From assembly GCA_000092065.1 (NCBI GenBank), contig CP000581.1: 64,000 nt of DNA. The stretch is one strand, 5' to 3'. A model generated the notes under the pieces. That model saw only the letters and a program-made list of their open reading frames with translations, made no database searches and was not told where the DNA came from. Each line of letters starts with the position of its first letter. Position 1 is the first letter of the stretch. This stretch comes from Ostreococcus lucimarinus (taxonomy: Eukaryota). The position numbers were made by a program, and so were the translations under genes. Shown here one piece after another: positions 28,300-37,600 of the stretch.

Positions 28300-29004
28300 C
28301 TAGGAAGTGGGAATGGTGAACGATTGCGTGGACGTGTCTTCGTCGCCGACGGTGTATTGCGCGACGAAGCGCGAAGAATCCAACTCGCGAACGATCCAGA
28401 TGTGCATTTGAAAGGTTTTCACGATGCCTTGGTGTTGTGGATGTACGTCGACGTAGTGGACTTCGTTACCGTCGAAATCAACCCAGTAAAGCGACACCGC
28501 GGTGGGACGGGCGTTGTAGAAGATGGCCACTCGCTTTGCCAAACCCGGGACGGACTTCGACGACCCGTCGAACGGCCCGCCGGTGAAGCCCGAAATCGGC
28601 GATGACGTAGAGTATGCGTCTGATGCGTCGTCGACGCCCGCGCCATCGGTAACGGCATCTTGTGCATCGCTCGCCGCCGTACTCGCTTGCGCTTTCGCGA
28701 ATGACGTCGCCGCCGCCTGCGTCAGTTCGCTCAGCCGTTCCCGAAGCCCCCCGGCGTTTTCCTCCATCGCTATCGACAGCGCCCCTTGCGCGCCGTTCTT
28801 TTTGAAATACTTTACTAAATCGCTCACGTCGTCTAAACGCACGAGCGACACGCGCGATCGCCGAACGGAGGTCGCCTTGAGCGCAGTCGCGGCGTCGTCG
28901 CCGTCGGTCGCGCGTTCGTTTGACCCCCCCAGCGCTGCGCACGTCGGCCCCTCCAGAGACGAGCACGCATCGTCGCCATCGTACGCATCTCCCACGTTTC
29001 TCAC
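28300..29004 (-). CDS. Protein with a C-terminal von Hippel-Lindau (VHL) beta-domain. No alpha/elongin-binding domain follows.
   Basis: KRVAIFYNARPTAVSLYWVDFDGNEVHYVDVHPQHQGIVKTFQMHIWIVRELDSSRFVAQY aligns by eye to the human VHL beta-domain [61 protein letters not shown]. Confidence 0.55.
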   Translation of the reverse strand: MRNVGDAYDGDDACSSLEGPTCAALGGSNERATDGDDAATALKATSVRRSRVSLVRLDDVSDLVKYFKKNGAQGALSIAMEENAGGLRERLSELTQAAATSFAKAQASTAASDAQDAVTDGAGVDDASDAYSTSSPISGFTGGPFDGSSKSVPGLAKRVAIFYNARPTAVSLYWVDFDGNEVHYVDVHPQHQGIVKTFQMHIWIVRELDSSRFVAQYTVGDEDTSTQSFTIPTS

Positions 29005-29453
29005 GAGCGCCTAACCGATCGATAAGTAGAGATCGTCAGTCTGTCGCAGTCGAAGTCGTCCCGCGCGTGCGTCTCACGCGTCCCCGACCGCCCGAGTCCC
29101 TAAGCGCGCGTCGATCGAGCGTCGGCCTCACCTCTCTCGGGAACGCGACGTGTTTGGCGATCATGTCCGCGAGCGTCAGCCCTCGCAAAGGCGCGGACGA
29201 CGCTCTGGACGCGAGCGCGACTTCGTCCGTCGTCACGACGAATTCACCACACGCGCGCGTCGACGTCGCGAGCGCGAGCGCGCACGCGAGCGCGCAGCGC
29301 GCGAGCGAAATGCGCGCGAACGATGTGCCACGCGGCATCGTTGATCGAACTGAGCCGTCCGCGGAAGCCGAGTTGTGACGTTCAGGCGTCCTCGACGGCG
29401 CTTCGCGAGCGGGGACGAGGTTTGGTGTTATTGTGGTTGTTGCTCTGCATAAT

Positions 29454-30185
29454 CTACGCGCTCTTCACGGGTGGCGTGTTTTTTAGCACGCGAATCAGAG
29501 ATCGCATCTTGGACAGGTCGGTGAGGGAGTCGGGGACGAGATTTTCATCCGACACGTAGTTGGAAACCGCCTCCCAACCGCTGGCGTTCGCGAAGAGCTC
29601 TTCCTCCGCCGTTTGGCGCTCGCGGTTCGCCTGCTTGGCGCTCGAGATTTGCTTGGCGCGCTGCGAATCCATGAGTTCCAGCTCGGCCTGGGCTTCCTCT
29701 TTGATGCGTTCGATTTCGCGCTTCTCCGCCTCCTCGCGTTCGGCGAGTTGCTTGGCTTGCTCGGCGCGAAACGCCTGCAAGTGCGGCGAGTTGTACATGT
29801 TCACCGCCGGTTCCTCCGCCATCACCGATTGCTCAGGCGCCGCAAAATCGGATTCACTCAACGCACTCGCGGACCCGGCGTTAGACATGACCGCTACGGG
29901 TTCCATCGGCGCCTCCTCCGGCGCCGGCGCCGCGGGTTCGGCCGGCGCCGCGTGCTCCACCGCCATCTGCCCCACCTCCGCCGTCATCTGTTCCACCGCC
30001 GCCGGCTCCGCCGCAAAATCGCCGAAGTCATCCAATCCACCGTCCGCGTGCCCCGAGTCCTCCGCGCCCGCGTTCGTTCCGAAATCTTTCGACGCGCTCA
30101 GCGAGCTCACGCTCTGAAACGACGAATTCATCTGCATCTGCGCCTCCTGCGCGCCCGCGTCCTCGTGCACCGATCCATCGTCCAT
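29454..30185 (-). CDS. CLC: Clathrin light chain.
   Basis: ATG at ~30185 (MDDGSVHE...; the track start at 30215 is a GTG). Acidic N-terminus, then heavy-chain-binding coiled coil AFRAEQAKQLAEREEAEKREIERIKEEAQAELE, then C-terminal WEAVSNYV...DLSKMRSLIRVLKNTPP, matching the CLC consensus W.RV..L.D...D.SRMR.VL..LK. Confidence 0.7.
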   Translation of the reverse strand: MDDGSVHEDAGAQEAQMQMNSSFQSVSSLSASKDFGTNAGAEDSGHADGGLDDFGDFAAEPAAVEQMTAEVGQMAVEHAAPAEPAAPAPEEAPMEPVAVMSNAGSASALSESDFAAPEQSVMAEEPAVNMYNSPHLQAFRAEQAKQLAEREEAEKREIERIKEEAQAELELMDSQRAKQISSAKQANRERQTAEEELFANASGWEAVSNYVSDENLVPDSLTDLSKMRSLIRVLKNTPPVKSA

Positions 30186-30508
30186 GGTATCGTGCGCTGC
30201 GTCTCGAACACACACCCCTCGTCGTCGTCGTCAGTCTCCGCGCGCCGTCGCCGATTCGCGCGACCGCGCCGTCCGTCCGTTTTCAGATCGGCCGGCGCCT
30301 TCGCGCCGCGCGCGTCGCTTCGTCGTCGCGCGTCGCGTTCGCCGCGTCGCGCGCGCGCACCGCTCGCGCTCCCGCCGTCCGCGCCGGCGCTCACGACGGC
30401 CTGCGCGAAGTCCGCGGTCGAGTCCTCGCTCATGTTCGCGGTCGAATTCTGACGACCGACGCGACGCGACGCGACATCGCGACGCCGCGCGGCGCCGGCG
30501 CGGCCGAC

Positions 30509-31165
30509 ATGCCGCCCGCGCGCGACGTCGCGGACGGTGAATGCGTGCGCCTGTGGCGCACGACGGACGAGCGCAAGCGGTACGACGATTTCGCGACGCT
30601 GTACGCGCTCGCGCGCGCGCTCGAGAAGCTCGAGCGGGCGTACGTGCGGTCGAGCGTCGACGCGAAGGCGTACGAGCGCGCGTGCGTGGACCTGACGAGC
30701 AAGTTTAAGACGCTGCGGAGCGTGCTGCGCGATTCCGTGCCGGACCTCGATCGATTCTTGGAGACGTACGGGGCGAGGGTGCCGGCGGCGAGACGGAGGC
30801 TGGAGGCTGGGGTGCCGGCGACGGCGGAGCACGGAGGCGCGGCGAGAGGCACGGAGGCGGAGGGGAGGGCGGAGGCGCGCGCGGTGGCGGACGCGACGCA
30901 TTGTTTCATAGGGGTGATGGATACGGTGAAGCTGGACATGCGGGCGAAGGATCAGGTGGCGCCGGCGCTCGGGGACTTGTTGCTGGCGCTGTGCAAGGTG
31001 AGTCGGTTGCCGAACGATTTCGAGGGGACGAAGTGCGTGCGGAAGTGGGTTCTGAGACTAGATGAGATGCGCGCGTCGGAGGTTCTCGAGGAGGAGGAAA
31101 CGAGAGAGTTTTTGTATGAGATTGAAAACGCATACTCGACGTTTTTAGCGAGCCTCGGCGGATAG
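30509..31165 (+). CDS. VPS28: ESCRT-I subunit VPS28.
   Basis: N-terminal domain ERKRYDDFATLYALARALEKLERAYVRSSVDAKAYERACVDLTSKFK. C-terminal four-helix domain RLPNDFEGTKCVRKWVLRLDEMRASEVLEEEETREFLYEIENAYSTFLASLGG. Confidence 0.85.
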   Translation: MPPARDVADGECVRLWRTTDERKRYDDFATLYALARALEKLERAYVRSSVDAKAYERACVDLTSKFKTLRSVLRDSVPDLDRFLETYGARVPAARRRLEAGVPATAEHGGAARGTEAEGRAEARAVADATHCFIGVMDTVKLDMRAKDQVAPALGDLLLALCKVSRLPNDFEGTKCVRKWVLRLDEMRASEVLEEEETREFLYEIENAYSTFLASLGG

Positions 31166-31250
31166 CGCTCGAGACAAATTTGTAGTTGTAATGTACTCGG
31201 TGTCACCCTCAAGCGCCGGCGACGAGCAGACTGGCAGACTATCTATCAGA

Positions 31251-32348
31251 CTAAACGAGCGGAGTGGATTCATCTTTGTCACCGCACGATTGCACTTTGC
31301 GCGTTTCGGCCGAACGACGCTTCAAGAGACCGAAGAGGGCGACGATGAGGGTTAATAACACACCGCATCCGACGACTCGAGCGACGCGGTTGCCGTCGAT
31401 GGATACGACGCCCGAAGCGCTCTGCAGAGAGAATCTAGCGTTGGCGTGGGGACAGTGGGCGAGTTCACCCGGAATCTCGTCGAGGTTGGCGCTGGTGAAG
31501 TTCCCGACGAGGTAGGAGGCTGCGTAATGATCCTTGAAACATCCCAGAAAGTGACAGACGCTCGCGCCGCGACTCGTCGCCTCCGCCTTTGACGCGCAAG
31601 GACTTCCAATGTGGCACGCGTCGTGCTCGCGGAGAACGCCCGCGTTTGCGTATTTCGGCATGACGTATCGGATAAACGCCCCTTGTTCATACTTACCCCC
31701 GCTGTACGCGCACGTCCCGTCGCGACTTTCGTCGTTGCACGTCCAACTTGTGTTGTCCGGGTTCATTCGCCAGTTTTGTCTCGGGTACAGTTGAGCCCAC
31801 GTGTCCATGATTTCCCGGCCTTTGGTGGAATTATTCACCCCCCAAACCCCGGCGTTAAATTTTGCCACCCAATTCAGCCCCACCGGACACGTCACCGCGG
31901 TATGCCCAGCGTAAAAAAACTCCGCGCCGTTGAAGAGCTCGTCCGCCACAGCCGACACGCCCGCCCGCGTCGCGCCGTCGCACCTTCGGACCCCGTCGTC
32001 ATCGACGCTCTCGCACACGCTCCGCCCGAGATGCAACGTTGCATCCGAATCCAACCAAATCACTCGATCGCACGACCCAGAGCGGAGAAGATCGCGAACG
32101 AGAAACACTTTCGCCCAATACGGCGACGCCGACTCCGGCGGCCGCTCCAACCGGTACGAACACGACGGCCCGTCGCCCTCGCACGTCGCTCGATTGTGCG
32201 CCATCAGCCGTCCTTCCATCGCATCGAACGCCGGTCGACCGATTCGGGTATCCGACTGCGACACGCACGTCGTCGTCGTCGTCGTCGTCGACGCCGTCTC
32301 GTCAACAGCATCGACTTCGCGTTCACGGTGCATCGCGCGCGCGCGCAT
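31251..32348 (-). CDS. Glycosyltransferase family 34-like (GMA12/MNN10-type nucleotide-sugar transferase).
   Basis: PYWAKVFLVRDLL...CDRVIWLDSDATL (P.WaK and DxD-containing WLDSDA motif typical of GT34). C-terminal hydrophobic segment VVGCGVLLTLIVALFGLL. Confidence 0.45.
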   Translation of the reverse strand: MRARAMHREREVDAVDETASTTTTTTTCVSQSDTRIGRPAFDAMEGRLMAHNRATCEGDGPSCSYRLERPPESASPYWAKVFLVRDLLRSGSCDRVIWLDSDATLHLGRSVCESVDDDGVRRCDGATRAGVSAVADELFNGAEFFYAGHTAVTCPVGLNWVAKFNAGVWGVNNSTKGREIMDTWAQLYPRQNWRMNPDNTSWTCNDESRDGTCAYSGGKYEQGAFIRYVMPKYANAGVLREHDACHIGSPCASKAEATSRGASVCHFLGCFKDHYAASYLVGNFTSANLDEIPGELAHCPHANARFSLQSASGVVSIDGNRVARVVGCGVLLTLIVALFGLLKRRSAETRKVQSCGDKDESTPLV

Positions 32349-32601
32349 CGATCGTACTCCTCGTCACGCGTCGTCGTCGCGCGGTGTCGAAGACGATCGA
32401 CGCCACCCTTGCGCTTTACTCAAACCCGCGTCGTCGTCGTCGGCGGCGGCTCCGGCGTCACGGCCGTCGATCGGCGCAGTTCTGTCGACGCGTTTCGTGT
32501 TGGGAGTGGATCCGAGCTTTTACTTTGACGCGGATTCTAATCGAAGTTTGCTCGTAACACCCACACGCGTTGGTTTTCGCGACGTAACGAGAGTCCGTTC
32601 T

Positions 32602-32674
32602 GAGGAGGAGGAAACGAGAGAGTTTTTGTATGAGATTGCAAACGCATACTCGACGCTTTTAGCGAGCCTCGGCG
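32602..32674. repeat. Second copy of a 73-bp segment whose first copy (31088..31160) encodes the C-terminal tail of VPS28. About 97% identical, same orientation, 1.5 kb apart.
   Basis: Both copies read gaggaggaggaaacgagagagtttttgtatgagattg[a/c]aaacgcatactcgacg[t/c]ttttagcgagcctcggcg. Copy 2 overlaps the last five codons and TAA stop of the opposite-strand GTPBP1 gene. Confidence 0.7.
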
Positions 32675-34443
32675 ACGTGCGCGCTCTCGACGGTAGCTAT
32701 GTGTGTGGTTTTGTAAGTCCTCGGTGGCGTACGCGGTACGTCGGCACAAATCGTTCGAATCACGCCGACGCCTTTCGTTCGTCCTTCGCGGAAAATGATG
32801 CGCGTCCCTTCGCACAAAAATTCAGGCCTGTGGCACCACTCGAATGTCACCATGGCTCGATCGCCCATGCGTAACAAGTCTTTGCCTTCGATTGCGCTGA
32901 TACGCGCCGCTTGTCGCACGGTGAGAGCGTGTAGCACTGGCGAATAGTTCACCCGAAGCGTGGTCGGGTGCGCCAAGATGATGACTTCTGCCTTGAATAC
33001 CCACGTAGCTTTCGGCTGAACGCTCGCGTCGCACAAAACCATGCCTTTACGAATTTCTTCCTTATGGATGTGCCCTTTCTTCGGCTTAATGGCGAAGCTT
33101 GCCGTGTTCCCTTGACCGACTGCTTCGACCGCCACACGCTTATTTTGGATGCTCTTTACCTGCACTGGCGTGAATGCGCCGCGGCCATCAGGCCCGAGTA
33201 ACATCGACGCGTGCGTCGTAATTTTTCCGCTCACGACGAGACCGCTCACCACCGTGCCGATACCTTGCACACTGAAAGATTCATCCAAGTGCACAAGCGC
33301 GCGGTCGCCTTCAAGCGGCTTGAATGTCCGCCTGCTTGGAATGTGATTCAAGAACATCCTTATCAGATCGAGTCCTAGTCCCGTGACGCACGACGCCTGA
33401 AATATCGGCGTGATCACGCCGCCGGCGATGTTCTTTACAGATGTCATGACATCGATGTCATCGCGCACGAGGATGGGCGTTTTATGTACGCCCGGGCGCT
33501 TGAGCATCTTCATAAGAGCGTCTAGCGTCGCCACTCTGTTCTCTTCGCTCGCCATGTCAACCTTGGTGACGATGACGAAAAAAGGTACCTTCAAGCCGAG
33601 CATAATTGATAAATGCTCCCGCGTCATGCCTATGATTCCGCCTCTGTTCGCGTCTACGCACATGAGCGCGAAATCAGGCAGCGACCCAGCGATGCCATGC
33701 ATCGTCGTTCGTAAGTACTTTTCGTGCCCGCACAAGTCGCTAAAATGCACGACTTTCGACGACGCCGCGCAGATTTGCTCCCACCTCAACTGATGTGCCT
33801 CTCGTACGTCTGGGTTGGAGTAGTTGATTATATTTCCTTTCGCATCGAATCCCATAATTTGCGACGAGATCGAACTCGTCCTTCCGCTCTCGAGCTCGTG
33901 TTTATGTCGAAACACGCCCCCGCGCGCCAGTCCTCGACCGTTATCCAAACCACCTTTTGTGAGCACGCCCAAAACCGTTGATTTCCCGGAATCCACATTT
34001 CCCAACGTCGTTATTCTGATCTCTTTGTGTTCGCTCGAGCACGGGCGTCGACGCACCAAAAACGTCGCGATTCGCTTTCCCGTCTTCGTCCGCCGTTCGC
34101 ACACCACCGACACATCGCACTCGATAGCCTCTGCCATTCGTTTCAACGTCGCCACGCTCTCCTCCATCTCGCATTCGCTCAATCCGAACACCGTCCCGTC
34201 GTCGTCCACTCCTAAATCGTACAACGCCTCGCCCGCGCCCTCCGCGAGGCAGCGCCAGTGGAGCTGCGTCACGAGTTCCTCGAATCGCTCGGGGGCGACG
34301 TCCACCAAACGCCGCTTGTACTCGCGATTTCCATCGTCGCGCTCGGGTTCGAGCGCGCGCGCGAGCTGATCGAACCCGAACGCGTCCGTCGGCGAGCTCG
34401 ACGATTTTTTGGCGGCCGCGGTCGCTGACGCGGCATCCGTCAT
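32659..34443 (-). CDS. GTPBP1: GTP-binding protein 1 (GTPBP1/GTPBP2 family translational GTPase).
   Basis: NREYKRRLVD, G1 GNVDSGKST, G3 DLCGHEKY, G4 TKVD, followed by EF-Tu-like beta-barrel domains. Overall collinearity with GTPBP1. Confidence 0.8.
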   Translation of the reverse strand: MTDAASATAAAKKSSSSPTDAFGFDQLARALEPERDDGNREYKRRLVDVAPERFEELVTQLHWRCLAEGAGEALYDLGVDDDGTVFGLSECEMEESVATLKRMAEAIECDVSVVCERRTKTGKRIATFLVRRRPCSSEHKEIRITTLGNVDSGKSTVLGVLTKGGLDNGRGLARGGVFRHKHELESGRTSSISSQIMGFDAKGNIINYSNPDVREAHQLRWEQICAASSKVVHFSDLCGHEKYLRTTMHGIAGSLPDFALMCVDANRGGIIGMTREHLSIMLGLKVPFFVIVTKVDMASEENRVATLDALMKMLKRPGVHKTPILVRDDIDVMTSVKNIAGGVITPIFQASCVTGLGLDLIRMFLNHIPSRRTFKPLEGDRALVHLDESFSVQGIGTVVSGLVVSGKITTHASMLLGPDGRGAFTPVQVKSIQNKRVAVEAVGQGNTASFAIKPKKGHIHKEEIRKGMVLCDASVQPKATWVFKAEVIILAHPTTLRVNYSPVLHALTVRQAARISAIEGKDLLRMGDRAMVTFEWCHRPEFLCEGTRIIFREGRTKGVGVIRTICADVPRTPPRTYKTTHIATVESAHVAEAR

Positions 34444-34620
34444 GAATGTCGCCGGCGCGTCGCGCGCGCGCGGTTCGCGCGGTCCGCGACGCGCGCGCGC
34501 GGTTCGCGCGTGATTTAGTCGCGCGAGCGCGAGAACGACGCGGGCGGGCGTCGAGAAGTGCGGGACGTCGTGGTTGCTGAATCGAAGCGAGTTGGTTACA
34601 ACCGTCTGACCGTGCCGCCG

Positions 34621-37600
34621 TCACGAGACGGAGACCGAGGTCATGTTCCACTCTAAGATGTCGACGGCTTGCCAGAGATCTCCCGTGGCGGCGGTGAAGC
34701 CGACCCACGCGCTGCCGCTCGTGGCGGAGTCGCGCAAGATGCTCTCGATGTTGAAAGGGACGCTCATCAGCGGTGAGGACATGTCGTCGAGGTAGACGGA
34801 GACGACTCCGAGGGAGTCGGCGGTGTGCGCGCTGAGGGCGGTGGACAAACCGGTGATTTCACCGGACTCGATGGCGAAAAACATCTCCTCAGAGGTGATG
34901 TTGGGCTTGTACGTGATGAAGACTTCGTGAATCTGACCGTCGGTGATGCTCGTCGTGGGCACGGAACCGTCAAGAGCGACGGTCGCGAGGCTCGCCGCCG
35001 AATGCGCCGTGTTTGGGGATTTACCGCGAGTGTGAATCGCGACGTGACTCTCACGTGGTTCGTTATATGCTGCGGTGAACACGGTGTCGAACTCGAACGC
35101 AATCGAATTGGTGATGCCACCGTATCCCAATCCGGGACCATCGAACCCGATGTCTGTCGCTCCCGGCGCCGAAGCGCTATCGTCGCGAATGACAAACGCA
35201 AAGCCGTCGCCGCCCGAAGTCGTACACTTTTCATAGAGCTTAGTGTGTAAAGACTGCACGAACGCACCGCTGACGCTCTCGGCGTAGTCACATGTGACTG
35301 TCGGTTGCGTGATCATGAACTTGAAGGTCACGTTGAATCCTTGCGCGACTTGCTGTTGCTGTGGATACCACACCGCGCCGCTCGCGTTTCGCACGGGATC
35401 GATGACCCGTAGTGCTTTGTAGTCGCACGCCCCGAGCTCGTCGGTTTCTTGGCTCGCCGTACGCGAGAGTCGTGTGCGCAGCGTCCCAAATGAGTCTATA
35501 CGTCTTGGTCCGCGAGCAGCATTTTGCGTGGTCGTCGTTTTCTGCCCAAAGTCTTGCGTCCACCAACCACCCGTAACGCGCCACGAGCCGCTCGCCCAGC
35601 TCCGCTCCATCTTTGAACTTTTCTTTTCCTCGCTCGCTTGCAGCCAAACCCGCTCACATGTTGGAGGTACGGGCTCGGGTTCAGTTCTCCAGTCGGCGAC
35701 GCACGTACACCGCTGATCGGCCCATTCTGCGACGTAGTCCAACACTCTCTCCGAATACGGGTTCCAGTCACGATCGAGACGTGACTGTGCCTCGGTCCAG
35801 TCTTCCGGCATACTCGCGCTCGTGGTGATGATTCCTAAATAGTTCGACCCCGTTTTCTTGCCGTGCAGTCTATGACCAGCCCGATACGTCGCCCCCGTGC
35901 AAAACGGATAAATAACACCGACGAATTCCGGTTTCACTTGCAACGCTTGATATTCGCTCGTATTCGTCACTCGACTACCAGTGACGACGACTGTGTTCAC
36001 CGTGTTCGGCACGCTCGTGGAGCTGATCACATCCGCTCGTCCGCTCACAAAAATCGACTGCCAAGAATCTAAATATTCTTGCTCGACGGAAGTGTAGCCG
36101 TATTCGACGCTTTCAGTGACATCAATAACTGCAGCGTTAGCAATCTGCGAATCCGGCTCGATGGTGTAGATCGTCTCCGTGTTCGTCGACGATTCGGTGT
36201 ACGTCAAAGATCCTCCTCGGATCTGTTCTTTCGTGAATGGACCGATCACTACACCGCTTGGAAGTTTAACGAGGAAGATTTCTTCGCACGCATTCGCGTT
36301 GGTCTTCCTATCCGTGGCATCCGCCGCTAAACACGAGCCACATGCGTCGAGCGTTTTACCGCTATTCGGCACGCCGTCACAACCGCAACATCCGCCGCCC
36401 CCCGCTGCACACGCGGTGATGAAAGCATCGGGGTCGCTACACCCGCTACCAACCTCGCCAACTTGTACGAGCAGCGTCTTCGCTCCCGAAACGGCGTCGA
36501 TACTATACATTCTTGTGTCGTCAGAGTCGTAGCACGCGTCTTGCACTTTACCGCTCGCGACGATGCCGTCGCAACCGACGCAATCCAAGCCGTTGCTACT
36601 CCCTCCACAAATCCCACACACATCCACCTCAGTCGATCCACCACACACATCGCAATCATCTGGATACAAGCCCTCTAACGGCCCTACCGGAAGCGGCGTC
36701 GCGCTCGTCGCACAACCTAAACAAGACGAAAGCTGCCCCTTGCAAACGCCGCACGCGTCGCGATTGTTTGTCACTTGCGGTAAAGCCGTGAGCTCTGGAT
36801 AGCACATCGTCGTACCTGGAACAGCGGCCTGCGTGGCGACGAGCGCCCATGCATCTTTGAACGCCTGTTCTGCCTGTTCATAGAGCGTCTGCGCCGCAGC
36901 CTTGTGTCTTGGTTCTACCAGCGCGCGAAACGTCGTCATCGTCGCCGCCGCCGCCGCGAACGCCTCTTGCCCTTGCGTCCATAAATTTTCTATCTGCGTG
37001 TGCTCGGCTGGTTTCACACCGTTGGGGTAGTACGATGCGCCGTCGATGCATTCACAACACAAATCTTGCGCGCTCGTCCCGAAAGCCACGCCGGCGCAAT
37101 CGCAGCACCAGCTCCACAGCGACGGATCCGTTCCCGAGCACCCGTTCCCGCCGCACACCCCGCACACGTCCATCACCGCTCCGCTATTCGCGACTCCATC
37201 GCACCCGACGCAGCCACCGAGATGATGATCCGGGACCCCCTCTCGCGAAAACGTCGCGTCCGTCGGCGCTTTACAATTCCCGCACGCGTCCGTCGTCGCG
37301 GCGCCGCCCGTGACGCTCGCGCAGTCCTCGCACGTGGCGTTAAACGTACACGTTATGGACGTATCGCTCTTATCGCACGCCGTCCCGCACGCCCCGCACG
37401 CATCGAACACCTTCCCACTGTTCGTCACGCCATCGCATCCCTGACACGCCGCGCCGTCCCCGCCGCACGTCCCGCACGCGTCCACGACGCGTTCGCGAAA
37501 CGCCGCCGTCCCCGCGTACGTCACCGTCGTCCCCGTCCCCGTCGACGGCATCACGCTGAACGCCCCTCGCGCCGGCACCGCGACGCTCGCGAGCGCGAGC

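What the first reader, a model, noticed from the sequence alone, without database searches (positions are those of the whole stretch)
31088..32674. A 73-bp coding segment of the VPS28 C-terminus is duplicated 1.5 kb downstream, where its reverse strand supplies the last codons and stop of GTPBP1
Copy 1 (31088..31160) encodes EEEETREFLYEIENAYSTFLASLG plus the stop of VPS28. Copy 2 (32602..32674) has 2 mismatches, lies in the same orientation and leaves the reading frame open (LYEIANAYSTLLASLGD...). On the opposite strand copy 2 provides the codons for ...VAEAR and the TAA of GTPBP1.

This may be a relic of a local duplication, an alternative 3' exon, or a shared 3'-end element such as a natural antisense overlap. 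Near-identity over such a short stretch suggests a recent event or gene conversion.
Basis: seen in the sequence. Interest (0 to 1): 0.5.

Follow-up and report, generated by a model that had tools for sequence, protein, structure and literature searches.

The report
Duplication scar of a gene insertion
The repeated 73 bases are real: they are the scar left when a gene from another locus was inserted between two tail-to-tail genes of an Ostreococcus alga, and the extra copy of the VPS28 tail, read backwards, now supplies the last four codons, the stop and the start of the 3' UTR of the neighbouring GTPBP1 gene. This is an ordinary kind of repair event, reconstructed here in detail.

Summary
Window 31088-31160 and 32602-32674 are a direct repeat, 71/73 identical, with no other copy in the window. 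17 independent metagenome contigs of the same lineage carry both copies, so it is not an assembly artefact.

In five other Ostreococcus lineages, and in seven contigs of a sister lineage (95-97% identical), VPS28 and GTPBP1 lie directly tail to tail, 40-78 bp apart, with a single copy of the segment. The window lineage has a roughly 1.4-kb insert between them. The insert carries a 365-aa gene whose homologues elsewhere sit between a WD40 gene and an AIM24 gene.

Left of the insert the ancestral 43-bp spacer and the old GTPBP1 end (VAGA*, 31209-31223) survive. Right of the insert an 84-nt re-copy of the VPS28 tail joins GTPBP1, at junctions where the joined sequences share 2-5 nt. This changed the GTPBP1 end from VAGA* to VAEAR*.

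All three differences between the copies are derived in copy 2, and one is still polymorphic. Gene conversion is therefore not needed, and copy 2 is not an alternative exon.

The best reading is end-joining or template-switch repair with a copied flanking duplication, as seen experimentally in O. tauri transformants. A later Tectonin-gene insertion and its deletion shaped the left edge of copy 2 in the window. Interest is modest.

The parts
30509..31165 (+). VPS28 coding sequence (218 aa, no intron)
   Evidence: Pfam PF03997, E=4.9e-58. 79% identical to O. tauri VPS28. Same position in the conserved gene order of all relatives.
31076..31160 (+). Copy 1 (segment A). This is the original VPS28 tail that served as template: 85 nt in full, with the 73-nt core at 31088-31160. 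It encodes ...SEVLEEEETREFLYEIENAYSTFLASLG.
   Evidence: It carries the ancestral state at all three sites where the copies differ (sister lineage and outgroups).
31166..31208 (.). Ancestral VPS28-GTPBP1 intergenic spacer (part of segment B), 43 bp. It is still attached to VPS28 and contains TGTAA.
   Evidence: Same length, and 40/43 identical, to the 43-bp spacer of the sister lineage L033-L039. Aligns with the spacers of L024/L026.
31209..31223 (-). Relic of the ancestral end of GTPBP1 (GTC GCC GGC GCT TGA = V A G A stop), now cut off from its gene. It lies in the 3' flank of the inserted gene.
   Evidence: Joined to 32677 onward it restores an in-frame ...ESAHVAGA*. The sister lineage has ...ESTHVVAGA* at the same place; O. 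tauri has VTAGAA* and L020 has VTAGGA*. Similarity alone has empirical p of about 0.01.
31224..32545 (-). Inserted cassette X. It holds a 365-aa gene (CDS 31251-32348), about 20-27 nt after its stop, and its upstream region. In the commonest haplotype X continues for a further 83 bp and totals about 1.4 kb.
   Evidence: Absent between VPS28 and GTPBP1 in 6 other lineages. Window 31232-32489 is 82-84% identical at nucleotide level to L030/L031/L032, where the homologue lies between a WD40 gene and an AIM24 gene. Pfam gives only a sub-threshold Glyco_transf_34 hit, E=0.11.
32546..32596 (.). 51-bp footprint of a later insertion and deletion of a Tectonin-domain gene. It replaces the last 83 bp of X and the first 6 nt of copy 2.
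   Evidence: Window 32520-32562 equals L003 8012-8054, which runs 17 nt into the L003-specific insert. Window 32566-32584 is the reverse complement of L003 8099-8117. Window 32583-32598 equals L003 8071-8086. L003 carries a 491-aa Tectonin gene here, a net 1752 bp.
32597..32674 (+). Copy 2 (segment A'), the re-copied VPS28 tail. It is 78 nt in the window and 84 nt in most haplotypes; the core is 32602-32674. It does not code for VPS28. Its reverse strand gives the GTPBP1 codons AEAR, the stop and the first 57+ nt of the 3' UTR.
   Evidence: It is absent from the sister lineage. A>C at 32639, T>C at 32656 and the 1-nt deletion are all derived here. It is polymorphic in L042 and L043.
32659..34443 (-). 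GTPBP1-type GTPase coding sequence (594 aa). Its last four codons and stop (32659-32673) are new and come from copy 2.
   Evidence: Pfam GTP_EFTU, D2 and D3. PDB 'GTP-binding protein 1', E=3.6e-150. C-terminus VAEAR* here against VVAGA* in the sister lineage.

Best explanation
In the ancestor, as in all relatives today, VPS28 (+) and GTPBP1 (-) lay tail to tail, 43 bp apart. Call the VPS28 tail A, the stop, spacer and last GTPBP1 codons B, and the rest of GTPBP1 C, so the order was A-B-C.

In the window lineage the DNA broke four to five codons before the GTPBP1 stop. The break was repaired by joining in about 1.4 kb from another locus (X: a 365-aa gene with its upstream region). Before rejoining GTPBP1, the repair also re-copied about 84 nt of the nearby VPS28 tail (A'). 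The result is A-B-X-A'-C.

The joined sequences share only a few bases at each junction (microhomology). (T)CGG is shared where X meets A'. CG to CGGCG is shared where A' meets C: VPS28 reads ...CTCGGCG|GATAG and the old GTPBP1 end reads ...GCCGGCG|AC(GAC)GTG. This is the signature of non-homologous or polymerase-theta-type end joining, or of replicative template switching. It is not the signature of transposition.

The consequences can be read directly from the sequence:
- GTPBP1 lost its own last codons and stop (VAGA*, left behind at 31209-31223). It now reads into the antisense of the copied VPS28 tail, ending VAEAR*.
- Copy 2 therefore gives GTPBP1 its stop and its proximal 3' UTR. That UTR is a piece of what had been its 3' flank before the event.
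- The inserted gene, which has the same orientation, inherited the old GTPBP1 3' flank.
- Copy 1 stays under VPS28 coding constraint, while copy 2 is drifting.

Shown: the empty site in relatives, the origin of X at another locus in other lineages, the relic, the junction sequences and the direction of the changes. Inferred: the repair pathway, and that it was a single event.
For: - The repeat is real and unique in the window.
- Both copies are present in 17 distinct contigs of the same lineage.
- Seven contigs of a 95-97% identical sister lineage show the empty site: one copy, a 43-bp spacer, and GTPBP1 ending VVAGA*.
- Five more distant lineages, including O. tauri, also show the empty site with the same conserved gene order.
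- The reconstructed A+B+C (window 31000-31223 joined to 32677-32900) aligns end to end with the sister locus, 96.5% over 451 nt with one gap, and restores an in-frame ...ESAHVAGA*.
- X is 82-84% identical, including upstream non-coding DNA with the same 56-bp spacing, to a locus between WD40 and AIM24 genes in other lineages.
- The junction sequences are shown.
- No inverted repeats or other transposon features flank X.
- All three differences between the copies are derived in copy 2. Copy 2 is polymorphic, with L042 keeping the ancestral A.
- In experiments, DNA inserted into O. tauri is often flanked by a direct duplication of the target (518 bp in one line) plus copied or filler segments. 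O. tauri also encodes Pol theta, Ku70/80 and ligase IV (PMC8002553).
Against: - The donor copy of X has not been seen in the window lineage or its sister. The nearest homologues are only 76-80% identical in protein. So it is unresolved whether X was moved, or copied with later loss of the donor, and the exact ends of X are uncertain by about 8 nt.
- The microhomology at the X/A' junction is inferred from donors of other species.
- The length of the A'/C microhomology (2 or 5 nt) depends on whether the ancestor had one GAC unit or two.
- An 84-nt templated copy is long for classical polymerase-theta filler.
- No transcript data show where the GTPBP1 mRNA ends.
Confidence: 0.7

Rival explanations
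1. Two steps rather than one. The insertion happened at a widely staggered break, which duplicated the whole A+B segment (about 150 bp) as a long target-site duplication, giving A-B-X-A'-B'-C. A later 61-66-bp deletion between the two CGGCG motifs then removed B', fusing GTPBP1 to the antisense of the VPS28 tail.
For: Direct target duplications of hundreds of bp flank inserts in O. tauri transformants (518 bp in line T3; PMC8002553). CGGCG occurs at the end of A and at the end of B, the right places for a slippage deletion. This locus has clearly undergone later deletions.
Against: It needs an extra event. The intermediate would leave GTPBP1 fully intact, so nothing favours the deletion. No haplotype with B' was found among 17 contigs. 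Flank tests show no decayed remains of a longer duplication: left flanks p=0.87, right flanks p=0.02 for a single 17-nt match.
Confidence: 0.2
2. The two copies are kept nearly identical by ongoing gene conversion, or by selection on a shared 3'-end or antisense element. On this view the duplication could be old.
For: Identity is 97% over 73 nt while the flanks are unrelated. Copy 2 sits in a functional position, supplying the stop and 3' UTR of GTPBP1.
Against: The duplication is absent from a sister lineage only 3-5% diverged, so it is young enough for 2 substitutions and 1 indel to be plain drift. All three changes are on copy 2 and none on copy 1. Copy 2 shows two segregating variants in about 18 haplotypes and copy 1 shows none. 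The sharp edges of the repeat coincide with the junctions to X and to GTPBP1.
Confidence: 0.05
3. X is a mobile element and the repeat is its target-site duplication.
For: A direct repeat brackets an inserted segment. A second gene (Tectonin) later landed at the same spot.
Against: The repeat does not abut the insert on the left: 63 bp of ancestral DNA (segment B) lies between them. There are no terminal inverted or direct repeats and no transposase or integrase in X. X is an ordinary host gene with its promoter region, found at a single locus with conserved neighbours in other lineages. At 84 nt it is far longer than the target duplications of known DNA transposons.
Confidence: 0.03
4. Assembly artefact, or an alternative VPS28 3' exon.
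For: One low-coverage contig (L023, protein P0002) joins the VPS28 body directly to copy 2.
Against: L023 has coverage 1.27 and is chimeric at both ends, with an unrelated low-GC tail and a foreign 5' end. 17 contigs from short-read and long-read assemblies agree on the two-copy structure. In the VPS28 frame copy 2 has no stop, and it has a frameshift in its longer form.
Confidence: 0.01

Closest known systems
Insertion scars of end-joining repair in Ostreococcus tauri transformants (PMC8002553), and polymerase-theta-mediated T-DNA integration in plants
   Same: Foreign or ectopic DNA is captured at a break. The insert is flanked by a direct duplication of target sequence (518 bp in O. tauri line T3). 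Extra short segments are copied from nearby sequence, and there is little or no homology at the junctions. The enzymes (Pol theta, Ku, Lig4) are encoded in Ostreococcus.
   Different: This is a natural event, present in every sampled haplotype of one wild lineage. The inserted DNA is a host gene from another locus rather than a vector. The duplicated piece is not contiguous with the break: it was copied from about 60-145 bp away and skips the spacer. It also became functional sequence, the new C-terminus and stop of a gene.
Microhomology-mediated template switching (FoSTeS/MMBIR) rearrangements
   Same: Several joins share 2-5 nt of microhomology. A nearby segment is re-copied in direct orientation next to DNA from a distant locus.
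   Different: The scale is small (84 nt plus 1.4 kb). Replication-based and end-joining-based origins cannot be told apart from sequence alone.
Transposon or retroelement target-site duplication
   Same: A direct repeat lies on both sides of an inserted segment.
   Different: The repeat is not adjacent to the insert on one side. There are no element termini and no transposition genes. The insert is a single-copy host gene.
Convergent gene pairs with overlapping 3' ends (cis-natural antisense pairs) in compact genomes
   Same: In the ancestor the GTPBP1 stop lay only 43 bp from the VPS28 stop, so its 3' UTR may have run antisense into the VPS28 tail (no transcript ends are known). Copy 2 preserves that antisense piece next to GTPBP1.
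   Different: After the insertion the two genes no longer overlap in cis. No transcript evidence is available.

Membership tests
End-joining / template-switch insertion with templated flanking duplication | An empty (pre-insertion) site exists in close relatives | tested here: met
   Seven sister-lineage contigs (L033-L039) and five other lineages have VPS28 and GTPBP1 adjacent, with one copy of the segment.
End-joining / template-switch insertion with templated flanking duplication | The inserted DNA derives from another genomic locus | tested here: inconclusive
   Homologues with homologous upstream non-coding DNA lie between WD40 and AIM24 genes in other lineages. The donor in the window lineage itself was not found.
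End-joining / template-switch insertion with templated flanking duplication | Junctions show only short microhomology, not long homology | tested here: met
   The A'/C junction shares CG to CGGCG. The X/A' junction shares up to TCGG. The B/X junction shares none or 1 nt. Exact lengths depend on inferred ancestral states.
End-joining / template-switch insertion with templated flanking duplication | The extra segment is an exact copy of nearby sequence in the same orientation | tested here: met
   84 of 85 nt were copied from 1.5 kb upstream today, which was 60-145 bp from the break before the insertion.
End-joining / template-switch insertion with templated flanking duplication | Dependence on Pol theta / Ku / Lig4 or on replication restart | not testable with these tools
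   The only evidence is the literature statement that O. tauri encodes these enzymes (PMC8002553).
Transposable-element target-site duplication | The repeat immediately abuts both ends of the element | tested here: not met
   63 bp of ancestral spacer plus GTPBP1 relic (31161-31223) separate copy 1 from the insert.
Transposable-element target-site duplication | Element termini (inverted or long terminal repeats), a transposase, or multiple copies | tested here: not met
   No flanking inverted repeats. The only gene in X is a 365-aa protein with a sub-threshold glycosyltransferase-34 hit. X occupies a single locus in every lineage examined.
Gene conversion between dispersed repeats | Derived variants are shared between the copies, or the copies are more alike than their age allows | tested here: not met
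   All three differences are private to copy 2. Copy 2 is polymorphic and copy 1 is not. The sister lineage lacks copy 2, so the duplication is young.
Alternative 3' exon of VPS28 | In-frame coding capacity with a stop, conservation in relatives, and splice signals or transcripts | tested here: not met
   No stop for 65+ codons, non-synonymous changes, a 1-nt deletion in the long form, and absence from all relatives. Transcripts are not testable here.
cis-natural antisense 3' overlap | Overlapping transcripts from opposite strands | not testable with these tools
   Only the geometry is known: a 43-bp ancestral spacer. No RNA data are available.

The most novel reading that the evidence does not exclude
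The insertion may have survived only because the repair re-copied the VPS28 tail. On this reading the antisense of the VPS28 tail is a required 3'-end element of GTPBP1, needed either for 3'-end processing or for RNA pairing between GTPBP1 and VPS28. Copy 2 would then keep that link working in trans after the two genes were separated. If so, convergent gene junctions in compact algal genomes could only be split by duplicative events, and the same junction, which later accepted and lost a Tectonin gene, would be a recurrent landing site for relocated genes.
Probability: 0.1. Interest if true: 0.55.

Novelty: new member of a known kind. Interest (0 to 1): 0.3.

Why it matters
This is a clean natural example, resolved to the base, of how a gene moves into a very tight tail-to-tail gene junction in a compact picoeukaryote genome without killing either neighbour. 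It has the empty site, the relic of the old gene end, and later variants all preserved in wild populations. It shows a protein C-terminus and stop codon being replaced by the antisense of a neighbour's coding sequence. It also shows that the repair scars seen in laboratory O. tauri transformants occur and persist in nature. The presence or absence of the insertion separates two closely related co-occurring Ostreococcus lineages and could serve as a marker in metagenomes. It does not reveal a new mechanism.

Tried and rejected
1. Longer decayed duplication. I first suspected homology beyond the 73 nt, because 31186-31202 TTGTAATGTACTCGGTG resembles 32718-32733 TTGTAAGTCCTCGGTG and there is an apparent 'EYITTT' versus 'TYKTTH' relic. 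A shuffle test gave p=0.02 for the right flanks and p=0.87 for the left flanks. The sister lineage then showed that 31166-31208 is simply the ancestral spacer. I treat the 17-nt match as chance.

2. Overlapping ancestral coding sequences. Collapsing the repeat would place the GTPBP1 stop inside VPS28. I rejected this because relatives have 40-78-bp spacers and the old stop survives at 31209-31211.

3. Contig L023 / protein P0002 (VPS28 fused to copy 2) as a deletion or empty-site haplotype. I rejected it because the contig has coverage 1.27 and is chimeric at both ends.

4. L003 as the original form of the insert. I rejected this because the common haplotype is collinear with the donor-type locus, including the 83-bp segment and the 56-bp spacing. 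The Tectonin gene therefore came later.

5. Structured RNA. Rfam found nothing in 29000-35000.

6. Search for the donor copy or a sister-lineage orthologue of the 365-aa gene. Nothing between 80% and 99% identity turned up. Species names could not be obtained from cluster metadata.
Full report
**Observation.** Window 31088-31160 and 32602-32674 form a direct repeat of 73 nt with 71 identities. A BLAST of the 73-mer against the whole 64-kb window finds only these two places (E=5e-35 and 1e-31). Everything else is a 10-23-nt chance match. The mismatches are A>C at 32639 and T>C at 32656. With one 1-nt gap the similarity continues 5 nt further left in the window (GTTCT[C]GAGG, from 32597).

- 30509-31165(+) is VPS28 (PF03997, E=4.9e-58).
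- 32659-34443(-) is a GTPBP1-type translational GTPase (GTP_EFTU domains). Its best solved relative is 'GTP-binding protein 1' 9ypg, E=3.6e-150.
- Between them lies 31251-32348(-), a 365-aa ORF with no Pfam family above threshold. Glyco_transf_34 scores only E=0.11.

On the minus strand, copy 2 supplies the third base of the Val codon, the codons A-E-A-R and the TAA of GTPBP1 (32659-32674). The other 57 nt of the core lie just past that stop. One detail of the finding is slightly off: the repeat ends at 31160, so the last Gly codon and the TAG of VPS28 are outside it.

**Not an artefact.** The exact VPS28 and 365-aa proteins occur on many marine metagenome contigs that are 99.5-99.9% identical to the window. 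17 distinct contigs, from different samples and from both short-read and long-read assemblers, carry both copies. The organism is an Ostreococcus: its VPS28 is 79% identical to that of O. tauri.

**The repeat flanks a lineage-specific insertion.** In O. tauri (L017-L019) and in four other Ostreococcus-type lineages (L020-22, L024-25, L026-27, L028-29) the gene order is conserved: SPRY, L21, VHL, clathrin light chain, VPS28, GTPBP1, lectin, RPE65. In all of them VPS28 and GTPBP1 are direct tail-to-tail neighbours, 40-78 bp apart.

The decisive case is a sister lineage whose flanking genes are 95-97% identical to the window at nucleotide level. In seven contigs (L033-L039, including NCBI GCA_014466335.1) it has one copy of the segment, a 43-bp spacer, and then the GTPBP1 stop. 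Its GTPBP1 ends ...ESTHVVAGA*.

**Anatomy.** Reading rightward from VPS28, the window contains:
- Copy 1, then the VPS28 stop.
- 31166-31208, which is 43 bp and 40/43 identical to the sister's spacer.
- 31209-31223, TCAAGCGCCGGCGAC. Its reverse complement is GTC GCC GGC GCT TGA = V-A-G-A-stop, which is the old end of GTPBP1.

Joining 31223 to 32677 restores an in-frame ...ESAHVAGA*. The reconstructed sequence aligns with the sister locus at 96.5% over 451 nt with a single gap. So the ancestral order was A (VPS28 tail), B (stop, spacer and last GTPBP1 codons), C (the rest of GTPBP1). The derived order is A-B-X-A'-C.

**The insert X.** X starts at about 31224-31232. Window 31232-32489 is 82-84% identical at nucleotide level to loci L030/L031/L032 of other lineages. 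There the homologous gene (76-80% protein identity) lies between a 1216-aa WD40 gene and an AIM24 gene.

In the commonest natural haplotype (16 of 17 contigs), X continues through an 83-bp segment. That segment is also homologous to the donor-type locus, with the same 56-bp spacing. It then meets an 84-nt copy of the VPS28 tail. In this haplotype X is about 1.4 kb.

**Junctions.** At the X/A' junction, X reads ...AAATCTTCGG and VPS28 reads ...GCGTCGG|AGGTTCT. At most TCGG is shared. At the A'/C junction, VPS28 reads ...CTCGGCG|GATAG and the old GTPBP1 end reads ...GCCGGCG|AC(GAC)GTG. This gives 5 nt of shared sequence if the ancestor had one GAC unit, or 2 nt if it had two as the sister does.

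No inverted repeats or transposition genes flank or lie in X. Copy 1 is separated from X by the 63 bp of segment B, so this is not a transposon target-site duplication.

**Direction and age of the differences.** At both mismatched sites, and at the 1-nt indel, the sister lineage and all outgroups have the copy-1 state: E in EIE.AY, F in .FL, and an intact frame. All three changes therefore happened in copy 2, which is free of VPS28 coding constraint.

One of them is still polymorphic: L042 keeps the ancestral A. L043 has a further C>T in copy 2. Copy 1 is invariant across all the contigs.

Both window copies share three states that the sister lacks, which is consistent with duplication after the split. 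Gene conversion is not needed to explain the 97% identity. The event is simply younger than the 3-5% divergence from the sister lineage and older than the roughly 0.3% diversity within the lineage.

**Mechanism (inferred).** The most economical reading is a break 4-5 codons before the GTPBP1 stop, repaired by end joining or template switching. The repair captured X and also copied about 84 nt of the nearby VPS28 tail before rejoining GTPBP1.

The same class of scar is documented experimentally in O. tauri. Vector inserts there are flanked by direct duplications of the target (518 bp in one line) and by filler or copied segments. Pol theta, Ku70/80 and ligase IV are encoded in its genome (PMC8002553).

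A two-step version cannot be excluded: a long A+B target duplication followed by deletion of B' between the two CGGCG motifs. No intermediate haplotype was seen, and the flank tests show no decayed longer duplication.

**Consequences (read from the sequence).**
- GTPBP1 changed its end from VAGA* to VAEAR*. Its stop and proximal 3' UTR are now the antisense of a copied VPS28 coding segment.
- The inserted gene has the same orientation and brought only about 20-27 nt beyond its own stop. It now abuts the old GTPBP1 end and 3' flank.
- The long + strand ORF through copy 2 (31930-32874) is an antisense ORF of a GC-rich region, not a gene.

**Later history of the same spot.** One contig (L003) carries an additional 491-aa Tectonin-domain gene on the + strand, a net 1752 bp, inserted between X's upstream region and its 83-bp end segment. 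The O. tauri orthologue of that gene (66% identical) lies on a different contig.

The window's own haplotype has a 51-bp footprint (32546-32596). It is made of three pieces of the 5' end of that insertion, one of them inverted, and it lacks the Tectonin gene, the 83-bp segment and the first 6 nt of copy 2. So the left edge of copy 2 in the window is a secondary deletion breakpoint. This haplotype was not seen in any metagenome contig.

**Open points.** No homologue of the 365-aa gene between 80% and 99% identity was found. The donor copy in the window and sister lineages is therefore unseen, and whether X was moved or copied is unresolved. No RNA data bear on 3'-end use. Rfam finds no known RNA family here.

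**Verdict.** The 'local duplication' idea is right, while 'alternative exon' and 'gene conversion' are not supported. The feature is a natural insertion scar of a known kind that happens to have rewritten the end of a conserved gene. Interest is modest.

Noticed in passing
L003 8038-9791 (between window 32545 and 32597); footprint at window 32546-32596: There is a presence/absence polymorphism of a 491-aa Tectonin-domain (TECPR beta-propeller) gene at the same junction. It is present in 1 of 17 contigs and absent from 16. The window has a rearranged 51-bp remnant that includes a 19-nt inverted piece. The O. tauri orthologue (66%) is on another contig, and an 88%-identical protein (P0073) exists elsewhere.
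   Followed up: partly
L042 and L043, copy 2 (equivalent to window 32639 and about 32599): Copy 2 is polymorphic in the wild population. L042 keeps the ancestral A at the first mismatch, so it shows only one difference from copy 1. L043 has a C>T in the left extension. Copy 1 is invariant.
   Followed up: yes
L023 (protein P0002): A 1.5-kb SPAdes contig with coverage 1.27 joins the VPS28 body to copy 2 and the GTPBP1 tail. It has an unrelated low-GC 3' part and a foreign 5' end. This chimeric assembly produced a spurious 301-aa 'VPS28' in the protein database.
   Followed up: yes
window 31186-31202 versus 32718-32733: There is a 17-nt near-match (TTGTAATGTACTCGGTG versus TTGTAAGTCCTCGGTG) between the VPS28 3' spacer and the GTPBP1 coding sequence. 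Shuffle p is about 0.02. The sister-lineage structure makes homology unlikely, so it is probably chance.
   Followed up: yes
window 31166-31250: The inserted 365-aa gene brought only about 20-27 nt beyond its stop. It lost the TTACA/TGTAA-containing flank seen downstream of its homologue in L030. It now runs into the old GTPBP1 end and spacer, so its 3'-end signals must come from host sequence.
   Followed up: partly
L014 and L033 (both from sample ERZ10646527): The insertion-bearing lineage and the empty-site sister lineage co-occur in the same sample. The insertion could therefore serve as a diagnostic marker between two Ostreococcus populations that are 95-97% identical.
   Followed up: no
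window 34456-34510: Two adjacent 26-nt GC-rich copies (CGCG[T/A]CGCGCGCGCGCGGTTCGCGCG, 29-nt spacing, 96% identical) lie just upstream of the GTPBP1 start.
   Followed up: no
window 32263-32301 and 32424-32450: There are GTC/GGC triplet runs. The first encodes the poly-Thr stretch near the N-terminus of the 365-aa protein. The second is length-polymorphic between the window and L001 (one extra GGC unit visible).
   Followed up: no
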